This document shows positions 54,640 to 54,760 of a stretch of DNA of 64,000 nt, piece after piece. Source of the DNA: a virus; IMG/VR virus record IMGVR_UViG_3300027851_000017, positions 9,303-73,302 of that record, one strand, 5' to 3'. A program made the translations under genes and the position numbers. Numbering within the stretch: the first letter of the stretch is position 1; each line of letters begins with the position of its first letter. Under the pieces are notes generated by a model, which saw only the letters and a program-made list of their open reading frames with translations, did no database searches and was not told where the DNA came from.

Positions 54640-54760
54640 GTAATCGTGCTCTACCAGCTGAGCTACTTTGGCTTTTGGCCGCAGAGTGGATTCGAACCAC
54701 TGACCCCGTCATTACAAGTGAAGTAACTATTTCCAACACTATACACTATAGTATTAGCGG
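54640..54760 (-). ncRNA. circularly permuted tRNA-like element (T-arm, closed acceptor-like stem, D-arm): YrlA-type Y-RNA candidate
   Basis: In - sense: agtggTTCGAATccact, then ctgcggc-caaaa-gccaaag, then tagctcagctggtagagc. Flanking segments are potentially pairing. Contains the agttacttc motif. Confidence 0.35.

What the first reader, a model, noticed from the sequence alone, without database searches (positions are those of the whole stretch)
54640..54760. Circularly permuted tRNA-like module directly upstream of the Ro60-like gene (YrlA-type Y RNA candidate)
In - sense the order is a T-arm (agtggTTCGAATccact), then a closed acceptor-like hairpin (ctgcggc-caaaa-gccaaag), then a canonical D-arm (tagctcagctggtagagc). 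The flanking segments (…cttgtaatgacgggg and cgattactattaccgc…) can pair. This is the topology expected for bacterial YrlA Y RNAs. There the tRNA-like domain is opened on the anticodon side, the acceptor is closed by a loop, and the RNA termini form the Ro-binding stem. A tandem tRNA array would not produce T-arm followed by acceptor-loop followed by D-arm.
Basis: partly seen in the sequence, partly recalled or inferred. Interest (0 to 1): 0.85.

Follow-up and report, generated by a model that had tools for sequence, protein, structure and literature searches.

The report
Phage Y RNAs beside a Ro60 gene
The flagged sequence is a real, conserved tRNA-mimicking "Y RNA" gene next to a phage Ro60-like gene; it is one of five such small-RNA genes around that gene, and it belongs to a class already described in bacteria and some phages.

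Summary
On the minus strand at 54619-54746 there is a T arm, a closed acceptor-like hairpin and a D arm, in that order. This sits 79 nt upstream of a TROVE/vWA (Ro60-like) gene.

- **Not a tRNA.** It is neither a tRNA nor a tandem-tRNA artefact.
- **Family membership.** A covariance model built only from 20 distant metagenomic and bacterial relatives hits it full-length at 92.6 bits (E about 1e-24).
- **Structure support.** Every helix shows compensatory changes, both in close relatives and across the family.
- **Terminal stems.** The frame is two stems (P1, P2) around an internal loop, followed by a conserved UUACUUC.
- **More modules.** The same frame recurs four more times around the gene: a second tRNA-like module (54756-54889), two short modules downstream (52996-53066, 52906-52990) and one at 51696-51809.
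- **Strand bias.** Across 97 sources, all 186 model hits lie on the TROVE-gene strand.

This is a YrlA-type Y RNA (Chen et al. 2014, which already included phages). It scores far below Rfam's threshold (29.6 against 69 bits) and lacks the canonical GNCGAA motif. Verdict: new member of a known kind, in a T5-like phage tRNA island. Binding to Ro60 and the function are inferred, not shown.

The parts
54619..54746 (-). Module M1 (the finding): complete Y RNA-like unit with a tRNA-like domain
   Evidence: R1 model hit at 92.6 bits, full length 1-130. Rfam YrlA gives 29.6 bits. Conserved with compensatory changes in L007-L009, L093 and L094.
54742..54746 (-). M1 outer stem P1, 5' strand GUGUA; pairs with UACAC at 54619-54623
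   Evidence: L009 has GGCA/UGCC at the same place. The family P1 is 97.8% paired, and all 4 pairs show changes on both sides.
54727..54733 (-). M1 inner stem P2, 5' strand GAAAUAG; pairs with CUAUUAC at 54634-54640
   Evidence: L009 has AAUACAG/CUGUAUU, with several double changes. The family P2 is 92.5% paired, and 7 of 7 pairs show changes on both sides.
54720..54726 (-). Conserved single-stranded motif UUACUUC that follows P2. It probably corresponds to the YUAY element and to 'AUGCuu' in the Rfam model. I infer it is part of the Ro60-binding frame.
   Evidence: U, A and C are invariant in alignment A4. The composite frame pattern occurs 143 times on the gene strand against 10 on the other, and 85 against 1 in named genomes.
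54709..54721 (-). Hairpin H: UCA-CUUGUAA-UGA, a 3-bp stem with a 7-nt anticodon-loop-like loop. It abuts the 2-bp P3.
   Evidence: Counting by position alone, 29 of 49 family members have 3 of 3 pairs; chance would give about 5%. Loop composition: U33 in 37/49, R37 in 45/49, A38 in 40/49. Helix 3 is 79.7% paired. The L012 loop change G>C keeps H but breaks the rival GUAAU/AUUAC pairing.
54707..54708 (-). P3, equivalent to tRNA 42-43: CG pairing with CG at 54645-54646 (equivalent to tRNA 27-28)
   Evidence: The pair covaries: CG:CG in the window, AA:UU in L007/L009, AG:CU, GU:AC and GG:CC elsewhere. Paired in 88.9% and 93.3% of cells.
54685..54701 (-). T arm AGUGG-UUCGAAU-CCACU, preceded by the 5-nt variable loop GGGUC (54702-54706)
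   Evidence: Three of the five stem pairs covary across the family.
54666..54684 (-). Closed acceptor-like hairpin CUGCGGC-CAAAA-GCCAAAG (two internal mismatches in this window)
   Evidence: L007, L009 and L093 carry a perfect 8-bp hairpin with a different sequence, CUGGUACA-UUC-UGUGCCGG. In the family, all 6 position-defined pairs covary and 92.6% are paired.
54648..54665 (-). UA (tRNA 8-9) plus D arm GCUC-AGCUGGUA-GAGC. G15 at 54658 can form the Levitt pair with C48 at 54702.
   Evidence: The Levitt pair in the family is G:C in 36, A:U in 7 and other in 2.
54624..54633 (-). 3' strand of the internal loop, CGCUUGUUCU (family consensus CGCUUGUUCC)
   Evidence: Logo of 219 unique modules. Aligned by R1.
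54756..54889 (-). Module M2: a second, tandem tRNA-like Y RNA of canonical YrlA layout. It has CUA plus a 5-bp anticodon-like stem GCAGC/GCAGC and no H hairpin. Elements: T arm GUCGG-UUCGACU-CCGAC; hairpin CUACGG-UUAAUAC-CCGUAG; D arm GUUC-AACGGGA-GAAC.
   Evidence: Rfam YrlA 28.5 bits and R1 69.7 bits. The D stem is AUCU/AGAU in L009, with 3 double changes; the hairpin has an A-U to G-C change. The MFE fold recovers P1, P2, the T arm and the acceptor hairpin.
53137..54540 (-). TROVE + vWA (Ro60-like) protein gene, 467 aa, with a MIDAS-like DTSGSM motif
   Evidence: Pfam TROVE E=6e-10. Phage phiLo Ro60 structures 9KOP and 9L5Y match at E=1.4e-15. Homologues carry PF05731/PF13519 and are named 60 kDa SS-A/Ro by JGI.
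52996..53066 (-). Module M3: short Y RNA-like unit downstream of the gene. P1 AGACAUA/UAUGUCU, P2 AAUACAG/CUGUAUU, UUACUUC, then a 19-nt apical loop.
   Evidence: Regex frame. The MFE fold recovers both stems. L009 has P2 AUUACGG/CCGUAAU. R1 with filters off gives 23.6 bits.
52906..52990 (-). Module M4: short Y RNA-like unit. P1 AGCCU/AGGCU, P2 GUAUUAG/CUAAUGC, UUACUUC, and an apical hairpin CCGC-AAG-GCGG.
   Evidence: Compensatory changes occur in P2, P1 and the apical hairpin in L007 and L009. R1 gives only 18.2 bits, which is at tRNA background, so the evidence here is weaker.
51696..51809 (-). Module M5: framed unit (P1 AGCUG/CAGCU, P2 AAGUUAG/CUAACUU, UUACUUC) carrying a T-arm-like hairpin and two other hairpins
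   Evidence: R1 gives 25.8 bits, E=2e-5. The same type occurs in L095, L013, L014, L015 and L096.
54574..54602 (-). Promoter-like site TTGAAT-17-(TG)TATAAT between M1 and the TROVE start codon
   Evidence: It lies in a 29-nt segment that is present in the window, L008, L093 and L094 but absent in L007 and L009.

Best explanation
M1 (54619-54746, minus strand) is a gene for a YrlA-type bacterial/phage Y RNA. It is one of five small RNAs (M1-M5) that flank the gene for a phage Ro60-like (TROVE + vWA) protein, inside the tRNA island of an uncultured T5-like phage.

**Shown from sequence and comparison.**
- Each RNA has the same frame: an outer stem P1, an internal loop with conserved strands (family consensus 5' UGGYGWAG, 3' CGCUUGUUCC), a 7-bp inner stem P2, and a conserved single-stranded UUACUUC.
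- The frame carries a variable apical module.
- In M1 and M2 that module is a circularly permuted tRNA core: variable loop, T arm, acceptor stem closed by a loop, then D arm. All the nucleotides needed for the tRNA elbow are present.
- M1 additionally has a hairpin that looks like an anticodon stem-loop.

**Inferred from what is established for Y RNAs.** The sources are Chen 2013 and 2014, Wang 2018, and phiLo phage Ro60 2025.
- The RNAs are transcribed with, or like, the neighbouring tRNAs and trimmed by tRNA-processing nucleases.
- The conserved frame is the docking site for the phage Ro60 ring.
- The apical module is the effector end. It either tethers Ro60 to a partner (host PNPase in the known RYPER complexes, or a tRNA-elbow-binding protein for the tRNA-like modules) or simply stabilises the RNA.
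- The likely biological role is RNA quality control or turnover during infection, in a phage that invests heavily in its own tRNAs.
For: **Anatomy and context.**
- Order and sequence of the arms.
- Rfam YrlA alignments for M1 and M2.
- The adjacent TROVE gene lies on the same strand.

**Family membership, tested independently.**
- Model R1, built from distant relatives only, hits M1 at 92.6 bits and M2 at 69.7 bits. Both hits are full length, with ends that coincide with the stems I inferred.
- All 186 hits with E<=1e-5 in 97 sources are on the TROVE-gene strand.
- The frame pattern occurs 143 against 10 times in metagenome and viral loci, and 85 against 1 in 80 named bacterial genome loci.

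**Covariation.**
- Close relatives (Ro60 92-93% identical) show double changes in P1, P2, P3, the acceptor hairpin and the M2 D stem.
- A pseudo-alignment defined by position only has 91.9% of cells paired, against 67% when shuffled and 28-42% when slid. Here P3, the acceptor hairpin and the Levitt pair were not selected for pairing.
- In the model-fitted alignment of 150 sequences, the helices are 80-99% paired.

**Literature.**
- YrlA is defined as T, acceptor stem-loop (AS), then D, within 4 kb of Ro60 on the same strand. It was found in 254 bacteria and 22 phages, and tandem YrlA/YrlB are processed from one precursor (PMC4201824).
- Phage phiLo Ro60 binds two upstream Y-like RNAs and host PNPase (PMC12135203).
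Against: - **No expression or binding data.** The RNA ends, the processing and the Ro60 interaction are all inferred.
- **Below Rfam's curated threshold.** M1 scores 29.6 bits and M2 28.5 bits against a gathering score of 69.
- **Canonical motif missing.** The 5' motif GNCGAAN0-1G is absent from M1 (UAGUGUUG sits at the corresponding place) and is only approximated in M2 (GGUGUAG).
- **Folding energy is unremarkable.** It is not better than shuffled sequence (z = -0.34 and -1.14), and the MFE fold of M1 picks a different structure.
- **Imperfect acceptor hairpin.** The window's copy has two mismatches.
- **Weak support for M3 and M4.** They score about the same as tRNA background with R1.
- **Alignment bias.** The large alignment (A5) was fitted to the model's structure, which inflates the pairing percentages.
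Confidence: 0.85

Rival explanations
1. Cis-acting leader: M1 and M2 are structured parts of the 5' untranslated region of the TROVE mRNA, for example an autoregulatory binding site for the protein, rather than free-standing small RNAs.
For: - They lie immediately upstream of the gene on the same strand.
- In L007 and L009 the 29-nt segment carrying the promoter-like site is missing, so co-transcription with the gene is plausible there.
- No terminator-like site lies between M1 and the gene.
- In M. smegmatis, YrlA and YrlB come from one precursor upstream of rsr (PMC4201824).
Against: - In the window, a strong promoter-like site (10 of 12 matches plus an extended -10) lies between M1 and the start codon.
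- Modules with the same frame also lie downstream of the gene (M3, M4, M5) and occur in arrays of up to five or more. That does not fit a leader.
- Each module has its own closing stem P1.
- Characterised relatives are trans-acting RNAs bound by Ro60.
Confidence: 0.07
2. Permuted or split tRNA: M1 is processed (RNase P cut in the acceptor hairpin, CCA addition) into a two-piece, possibly chargeable tRNA-like molecule, and it acts in translation or as a tRNA substitute.
For: - All four tRNA arms can be drawn once hairpin H is stacked on P3.
- The H loop CUUGUAA is identical to the anticodon loop of the phage's own tRNA-Thr(UGU).
- M. smegmatis YrlA is cut by RNase P and receives CCA in vivo (PMC4201824).
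- L007 and L009 have a 7-8 bp acceptor-like stem.
Against: - The window's acceptor hairpin has only 5 of 7 pairs and a 5-nt loop.
- The 'anticodon' varies freely between relatives: UGU, UCU, GUU, CUG, GCU and UGA.
- M2 lacks the hairpin altogether.
- The ARAGORN calls on un-permuted sequences were no better than with hairpin H shuffled: 40/49 against a mean of 38.7/49. That test therefore gives no support.
- The tight link with TROVE genes points to Ro60.
Confidence: 0.04
3. Decayed tRNA genes: the module is a non-functional remnant of a tandem tRNA pair, or a tRNA with a large insertion, in a tRNA-rich region.
For: - Rfam tRNA hit at 54677-54817 at exactly the gathering score (29.0 bits). It joins M2's D arm to M1's T arm.
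- The region holds 26 tRNA genes.
- Chen et al. warn that dimeric tRNAs can mimic YrlA.
Against: - ARAGORN finds no tRNA there.
- The bridging hit needs an insert of about 70 nt and is not found in L007 or L009.
- Helices are maintained by compensatory changes over large evolutionary distances.
- Hits are strictly strand-specific and occur next to TROVE genes in unrelated bacteria and phages.
Confidence: 0.02

Closest known systems
YrlA (Y RNA-like A), Rfam RF02553; Chen et al. 2014, RNA 20:1715 (PMC4201824); crystal structure of the Salmonella YrlA tRNA-like domain (Wang et al. 2018, bioRxiv 10.1101/312249)
   Same: - Encoded next to a Ro60/TROVE gene on the same strand.
- Order: T arm, closed acceptor stem-loop, UA, D arm.
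- Conserved D- and T-loop nucleotides and a covarying Levitt pair.
- No free CCA end.
- A stem-bulge-stem region towards the RNA termini.
- More than one Y RNA per locus.
- Also present in phages (22 in the 2014 survey, including CcrColossus, whose Ro60 is 38% identical to this one).
   Different: - It scores 29.6 bits against a gathering score of 69.
- M1 lacks GNCGAAN0-1G. At the position that cmscan aligns to 'cgaAUGCuu', this clade has (C)RG-UUACUUC.
- There is an extra outer stem and a conserved 3' strand (UGUUCY) outside the Rfam model.
[quoted passage not shown]
Thermus phage phiLo Ro60 with Yrl1/Yrl2 (NAR 2025, PMC12135203; PDB 9KOP, 9L5Y)
   Same: - A phage-encoded Ro60 homologue; it is the only solved relative found by sequence (E=1.4e-15).
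- It has two Y-like RNAs encoded just upstream.
- The RNAs have a stem, internal bulge, stem layout.
- It is shown to form a complex with host PNPase.
   Different: - The phiLo RNAs were identified by the CGAA motif, and the paper does not mention tRNA-like domains (0 occurrences of 'tRNA-like').
- Protein identity is only about 28% over half the length.
YrlB / Yrn2-type short Y RNAs (Salmonella, M. smegmatis, D. radiodurans)
   Same: M3 and M4 are short stem, internal loop, stem, loop RNAs. They share the presumed Ro60-binding frame with the tRNA-like RNA of the same locus.
   Different: - There is no sequence similarity.
- They lie downstream of the gene.
- They are known only from prediction here.
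tRNA (RF00005) and permuted tRNA genes of Cyanidioschyzon merolae
   Same: - The tRNA core (D arm, T arm, variable loop, acceptor helix) is present, with the 3' half encoded before the 5' half.
- The acceptor ends are joined by a short linker.
   Different: - No bulge-helix-bulge termini.
- The acceptor stays closed.
- A Ro-type frame is inserted at position 28/29.
- The 'anticodon' is not conserved.
- It is tied to TROVE genes, not to decoding.

Membership tests
YrlA-type Y RNA (Chen et al. 2014) | Encoded within 4 kb of a Ro60/TROVE gene, on the same strand | tested here: met
   M1's P1 3' strand ends at 54619 and the TROVE ATG is at 54540, both on the minus strand.
YrlA-type Y RNA (Chen et al. 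2014) | T stem-loop, then a closed 'acceptor' stem-loop, then a D stem-loop | tested here: met
   The acceptor hairpin covaries in close relatives and across the family.
YrlA-type Y RNA (Chen et al. 2014) | tRNA tertiary-interaction nucleotides conserved, with compensatory G15:C48 / A15:U48 Levitt pair | tested here: met
   M1 has U8, A14, G15, G18G19, U54U55C56, A58 and C48. In the family the Levitt pair is G:C in 36, A:U in 7 and other in 2. Window M2 is an exception, with A15 and C48.
YrlA-type Y RNA (Chen et al. 2014) | GNCGAAN0-1G motif near the 5' end (presumed Ro60 contact) | tested here: not met
   M1 has UAGUGUUG in the 5' internal-loop strand and CAG/UAG-UUACUUC after P2. M2 has GGUGUAG (GGCGUAG in L008 and L009). 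The family consensus UGGYGWAG fits the motif only when Y=C and W=A.
YrlA-type Y RNA (Chen et al. 2014) | Conserved YUAY upstream of the T arm | tested here: inconclusive
   UUAC (54726-54723) is invariant in alignment A4. M2 also has CUAG before its anticodon-like stem, and cmscan aligns that to the model's CUA. Which of the two corresponds to YUAY cannot be settled without the published alignment, which is not held.
YrlA-type Y RNA (Chen et al. 2014) | Bound by the Ro60 orthologue; accumulates as a discrete small RNA | not testable with these tools
   Needs immunoprecipitation and Northern blot or RNA-seq.
Rfam RF02553 YrlA | Score at or above the gathering threshold (69 bits) | tested here: not met
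   M1 29.6 bits and M2 28.5 bits. The published CcrColossus locus also reaches only 42, 30 and 30 bits, so the model is narrow.
TROVE-associated framed RNA family defined here (model R1) | Full-length match to a model built without the window's clade | tested here: met
   M1 92.6 bits, M2 69.7, M5 25.8, M3 23.6, M4 18.2. The tRNA background is at most 21 bits.
tRNA (RF00005 / ARAGORN) | Cloverleaf in standard order with an open acceptor stem | tested here: not met
   No ARAGORN call. The only RF00005 hit bridges two modules with an insert of about 70 nt, at 29.0 bits, and is absent in L007 and L009.
Metazoan-type Y RNA (RF00019) | Match to the Y_RNA model | tested here: not met
   No hit at E<=10 in 54450-54950.

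The most novel reading that the evidence does not exclude
M1-class modules are complete tRNA mimics, not just elbow mimics. The 2-bp P3 and the abutting 3-4 bp hairpin H stack into a 5-6 bp 'anticodon stem' with a 7-nt loop of pattern Y32-U33-NNN-R37-A38, and the Ro60-binding frame branches off at position 28/29.

Together with modules M2-M5, which carry the same frame but different heads, this would make the phage Ro60 a platform with interchangeable RNA adaptors. One of those adaptors would present a whole tRNA look-alike. It could act as a decoy or bait for tRNA-directed host enzymes such as anticodon nucleases, or, after an RNase P cut, as a two-piece tRNA.
Probability: 0.15. Interest if true: 0.75.

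Novelty: new member of a known kind. Interest (0 to 1): 0.45.

Why it matters
- **Wider host range.** It extends Ro60/Y RNA systems to T5-like phages. No T5-like isolate among the 78 phage records with a TROVE match carries one.
- **Gaps in current annotation.** The curated Rfam model misses this branch entirely, so such RNAs go unannotated or are mislabelled. CcrColossus carries a 'tRNA-Gln' annotation on the 5' half of one module.
- **A testable binding site.** The shared frame (P1, internal loop, P2, UUACUUC) carrying five different heads in one locus is a compact natural experiment. It could show which part of a Y RNA binds Ro60 and which part recruits partners. The role of the tRNA-like domain has been open since 2014.
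- **Limits.** The phage is uncultured and nothing here is functional evidence, so the practical gain is mainly better annotation and a concrete binding-site hypothesis.

Tried and rejected
1. **Folding energy.** Single-sequence MFE folding of M1 and M2 gave z-scores of -0.34 and -1.14. The M1 MFE structure disagrees with the comparative one. This is uninformative, as is common for tRNA-like RNAs.
Rejected. It is broken in L007 and L093, absent in L095, and incompatible with the conserved hairpin H.
3. **Nucleotide similarity to sequenced phages.** No match by megablast. Sensitive blastn found only short tRNA-arm matches.
4. **Un-permuting test.** I rearranged 49 modules in silico into tRNA order and ran ARAGORN. 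It called 40/49 as tRNAs with the anticodon in hairpin H (window M1 as Thr-UGU). The control with H shuffled gave a mean of 38.7/49, so the test says nothing about H.
5. **The Rfam tRNA hit at 54677-54817 as an intron-containing tRNA.** Rejected as an artefact of two adjacent permuted modules.
6. **First mapping of the frame onto the Rfam model.** It was ambiguous. cmscan aligns Rfam P1 to my inner stem P2. However, the motif spacing (GGYGWAG, 7 bp, then UUAC) also resembles GNCGAA, 7-bp P2, then YUAY. I leave this open.
7. **Unavailable sources.** The supplementary tables of Chen 2014 and the two Wolin-lab reviews are not held. I could not check whether any relative of this clade is in their list, beyond CcrColossus, which PMC12135203 names.
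Full report
**1. What is at the coordinates**

Read on the minus strand, the region contains these elements in order:
- the variable loop GGGUC (54706-54702);
- a T arm, AGUGG-UUCGAAU-CCACU (54701-54685);
- a closed hairpin, CUGCGGC-CAAAA-GCCAAAG (54684-54666);
- UA (54665-54664);
- a D arm, GCUC-AGCUGGUA-GAGC (54663-54648);
- A (54647) and CG (54646-54645).

ARAGORN finds 26 tRNAs in the window, all on the minus strand between 49.3 and 61.8 kb, but none here.

At gathering thresholds Rfam reports only tRNAs. 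One of these is a 29.0-bit hit at 54677-54817 with a very long insert. In E-value mode Rfam gives two sub-threshold YrlA (RF02553) hits in tandem: 54618-54730 at 29.6 bits and 54768-54877 at 28.5 bits, against a gathering score of 69.

Immediately downstream is a 467-aa ORF (54540-53137, minus strand).
- It has a Pfam TROVE match (E=6e-10).
- Its only solved relative by sequence is the Ro60 of Thermus phage phiLo (9KOP/9L5Y, E=1.4e-15).
- It carries a MIDAS-like DTSGSM motif.
- Its homologues carry TROVE and vWA domains, and JGI names some of them 60 kDa SS-A/Ro ribonucleoprotein.

**2. The genome**

The window looks like a distant T5-like phage.
- It encodes family A DNA polymerase that is 50% identical to those of T5-like Vibrio and Enterobacter phages.
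- It also encodes SbcCD-like proteins, an NAD-dependent ligase, ribonucleotide reductase and NAMPT, and it has a large tRNA island.
- There is no nucleotide-level match in the phage collection.
- The TROVE protein has 78 phage matches, all below 60% identity: RsoM2USA, Xanthomonas phages, Caulobacter and Brevundimonas jumbo phages, crAss001 and others. None of these is T5-like.

**3. Close relatives and the real structure of M1**

The protein database holds 14 clusters at 86-98% identity and many at about 60%. I fetched their contigs and aligned the regions upstream of the gene. Both YrlA-like hits are conserved, with compensatory changes.

For M1:
- **Inner stem P2.** GAAAUAG (54733-27) pairs with CUAUUAC (54640-34). 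In L009 it becomes AAUACAG/CUGUAUU.
- **Outer stem P1.** GUGUA (54746-42) pairs with UACAC (54623-19). In L009 it becomes GGCA/UGCC.
- **P3.** The 2-bp CG:CG (54708-07 with 54646-45) becomes AA:UU.
- **Acceptor-like hairpin.** The window's copy is imperfect. In L007, L009 and L093 it is a perfect 8-bp hairpin of a different sequence.
- **Invariant motif.** UUACUUC (54726-20) lies between P2 and the tRNA-like core.
- **Hairpin H.** UCA-CUUGUAA-UGA (54721-09).

**4. A shared frame and four more modules**

The same layout recurs many times near TROVE genes. The layout is a 7-nt segment, then WUACYUC, then a variable insert, then the complementary 7-mer, then a few bases, then GUU(C/A).
- A mechanical search for this composite found 143 instances on the gene strand against 10 on the other, across 96 loci.
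- An independent set of 80 named bacterial genome loci gave 85 against 1. These are mostly Acidobacteriota, plus Alphaproteobacteria, Saccharibacteria and others.
- The logo of 219 unique modules reads CCGG-UGGYGWAG-[P2]-UUACUUC ... [P2']-(U)CGCUUGUUCC-CCGG. That is an outer stem, an internal loop with two conserved strands, and an inner stem.

In the window the frame occurs five times, all on the minus strand:

| Module | Coordinates | Head |
|---|---|---|
| M2 | 54756-54889 | tRNA-like |
| M1 | 54619-54746 | tRNA-like |
| M3 | 52996-53066 | 19-nt loop |
| M4 | 52906-52990 | small hairpin |
| M5 | 51696-51809 | T-arm-like hairpin plus two others |

MFE folds recover P1 and P2 for M2-M5. M3 and M4 show compensatory changes in relatives.

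Caulobacter phage CcrColossus is named in the literature as having Y-like RNAs. It has at least five such modules in tandem, with outer stems of 9-11 bp. Even there, Rfam YrlA reaches only 42, 30 and 30 bits.

**5. An independent membership test**

I built a covariance model, R1, from 20 M1-type modules. All came from distant loci, with TROVE 40-60% identical, and none came from the window's clade.
- In the whole window it finds M1 at 92.6 bits (E about 1e-24), full length, 54619-54745.
- It finds M2 at 69.7 bits and M5 at 25.8 bits. True tRNAs score at most 21 bits.
- With filters off, M3 scores 23.6 and M4 scores 18.2. The M4 score is at tRNA background.
- Over 97 sources (435 kb, both strands), all 186 hits with E<=1e-5 are on the TROVE-gene strand.

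**6. Covariation counts**

To avoid fitting the alignment to the structure, I cut 45 distinct tRNA-like modules into fixed-length segments. The cuts were defined only by distance from the T-loop and D-loop anchors.
- T and D stems had been required to pair when I selected the modules. P3, the acceptor hairpin, H and the Levitt pair had not.
- Pairing is 91.9% overall, against 67.3% when shuffled (0 of 500 shuffles reach it) and 28-42% when the partner is slid.
- By helix: P3 88.9%, acceptor hairpin 92.6% with all six pairs changing on both sides, and Levitt pair 95.6% (G:C in 36, A:U in 7).
- In the model-fitted alignment of 150 hits: P1 97.8%, P2 92.5%, H 79.7%, P3 93.3%, T 99.5%, acceptor 91.3%, D 96.0%. 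This alignment leans towards the structure by construction.

**7. How this relates to what is known**

Chen et al. 2014 (PMC4201824) defined YrlA RNAs by these features:
- location within 4 kb of a Ro60 orthologue, on the same strand;
- the order T, then an acceptor-like stem-loop (AS), then D;
- conserved tertiary-interaction nucleotides, with Levitt-pair covariation;
- a 5' GNCGAAN0-1G motif and a YUAY element;
- often a fourth, 'V', stem-loop upstream of T.

They reported 355 candidates in 254 bacteria and 22 phages. In M. smegmatis they showed two Y RNAs processed from one precursor upstream of rsr, and RNase P cleavage plus CCA addition of YrlA.

Wang et al. 2018 (bioRxiv 10.1101/312249) showed that the Salmonella domain is a close tRNA mimic with a closed acceptor stem and no anticodon loop. 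They also cite the idea that YrlAs arose from dimeric tRNA transcripts.

A 2025 paper (PMC12135203) showed that a phage Ro60 binds two upstream Y-like RNAs and host PNPase.

M1 and M2 meet the positional, architectural and tertiary-nucleotide criteria. They fail the Rfam threshold. M1 fails the GNCGAA motif and M2 comes close, with GGCGUAG in relatives.

cmscan aligns Rfam's terminal stem and 'AUGCuu' to my P2 and 'WUACUU'. The frame is therefore most simply a diverged version of the known Ro-binding region, extended by an outer stem and a conserved 3' strand that the Rfam model does not cover.

Hairpin H is probably the element Chen et al. call 'V'. Several of its features fit an anticodon arm better than a variable arm:
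- its 7-nt loop has tRNA-like composition: Y32 in 35/49, U33 in 37/49, R37 in 45/49, A38 in 40/49;
- it abuts the 2-bp P3 directly;
- the stem length adds up to 5 bp (2 from P3 plus 3 from H).

I could not confirm this reading. ARAGORN accepts the un-permuted sequences equally often when H is shuffled.

**8. Mechanism**

*Shown.* There is a family of strand-specific, structurally constrained RNA-like elements with a common frame and variable heads. They are tightly linked to one clade of TROVE/vWA genes in bacteria and phages, and the window carries five of them, two with a permuted tRNA core.

*Inferred.*
- They are expressed as small RNAs, probably processed out of the tRNA-island transcripts. 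M2 starts right after a conserved hairpin that begins at the CCA end of tRNA-Met. A promoter-like site for the TROVE gene lies between M1 and the ATG.
- The frame binds the phage Ro60 ring.
- The heads recruit partners or stabilise the RNA, by analogy with the Ro60/Y RNA/PNPase complexes.

I put 0.85 on 'YrlA-type Y RNA gene' and somewhat less on each inferred step.

**9. Rivals**

- **5' leader of the TROVE mRNA (0.07).** Disfavoured by the downstream modules and by each module having its own closing stem.
- **Processed two-piece tRNA (0.04).** Disfavoured by the poor acceptor stem here and by the free variation of the 'anticodon'.
- **Decayed tandem tRNAs (0.02).** Contradicted by covariation and by the strand-specific linkage to TROVE genes.

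**10. Verdict**

What is new here:
- the host type, a T5-like phage with the locus in its tRNA island;
- the number of modules, five;
- an explicit frame consensus for this TROVE clade;
- the demonstration that the curated model misses the clade.

Novelty: new member of a known kind. Interest: 0.45.

Noticed in passing
window 54756-54889 (-): A second tRNA-like Y RNA module (M2) lies in tandem, directly upstream of the flagged one. It has the canonical YrlA layout, and its D stem changes at three pairs in L009.
   Followed up: yes
window 52996-53066, 52906-52990 and 51696-51809 (-): Three further modules (M3, M4, M5) carry the same P1, internal loop, P2, UUACUUC frame but non-tRNA or partial heads. 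All lie downstream of the TROVE gene. M3 and M4 are only weakly detected by the family model.
   Followed up: partly
window 54883-54925 (-): An AU-rich 43-nt hairpin starts at the encoded CCA end of tRNA-Met (54923-54998) and ends just before M2. It has compensatory A>G / U>C changes in L007 and L009. Its 3' strand overlaps the bases that could form M2's outer stem, so the two structures exclude each other. It may be a processing site.
   Followed up: partly
window 53069-53086 (-): A conserved GNRA-type hairpin, CUAGGCC-GCAA-GGCUUAG, lies 50 nt after the TROVE stop codon. It covaries in L008 and L009 and has no U-tract after it.
   Followed up: no
window 56313-56410 and 59747-59852 (-): Two Rfam tRNA hits (43.6 and 42.3 bits) have long internal inserts, and ARAGORN does not call them. 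They may be tRNAs with introns or long extra arms. Relatives L007 (644-726) and L009 (119-201) have sub-threshold tRNA-Sec-like hits.
   Followed up: no
window 54574-54610 (-); L007/L009 lack it: A 29-nt insertion/deletion between M1 and the TROVE start carries the -35 part of a strong promoter-like site (TTGAAT-17-TGnTATAAT). It is present in the window, L008, L093 and L094.
   Followed up: partly
L097 (Caulobacter phage CcrColossus NC_019406) 1673-1740: The record's 'tRNA-Gln' annotation covers the 5' half of a framed Y RNA-like module (1671-1832, R1 105.8 bits). Its 'anticodon' CUG is the loop of hairpin H. This is probably a mis-annotation.
   Followed up: partly
L110 1311-1437, L112 1309-1435, L113 1288-1415 and similar Acidobacteriaceae loci: A third way of joining a tRNA to the frame. 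The tRNA is permuted within the D loop, so a complete anticodon arm (loop CGCAUGA in L110; other loops in L112, L113 and related loci), the V loop, the T arm and a closed acceptor lie between the two halves of the D arm.
   Followed up: no
L094 700-805 versus window M2: In one close relative the M2 frame is kept (GACUACAG/CUGUAGUC, AUACUUA), but the tRNA-like head is replaced by an unrelated insert of about 57 nt. L093's M1 combines the window-type frame with the L007-type acceptor hairpin. Heads and frames appear to be exchanged by recombination.
   Followed up: partly
L127 1343-1470 (Patescibacteria MAG contig): This module has exactly the same hairpin H and P3 strand (UCACUUGUAAUGACG) as the window's M1, even though the TROVE protein is only about 43% identical.
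   Followed up: no
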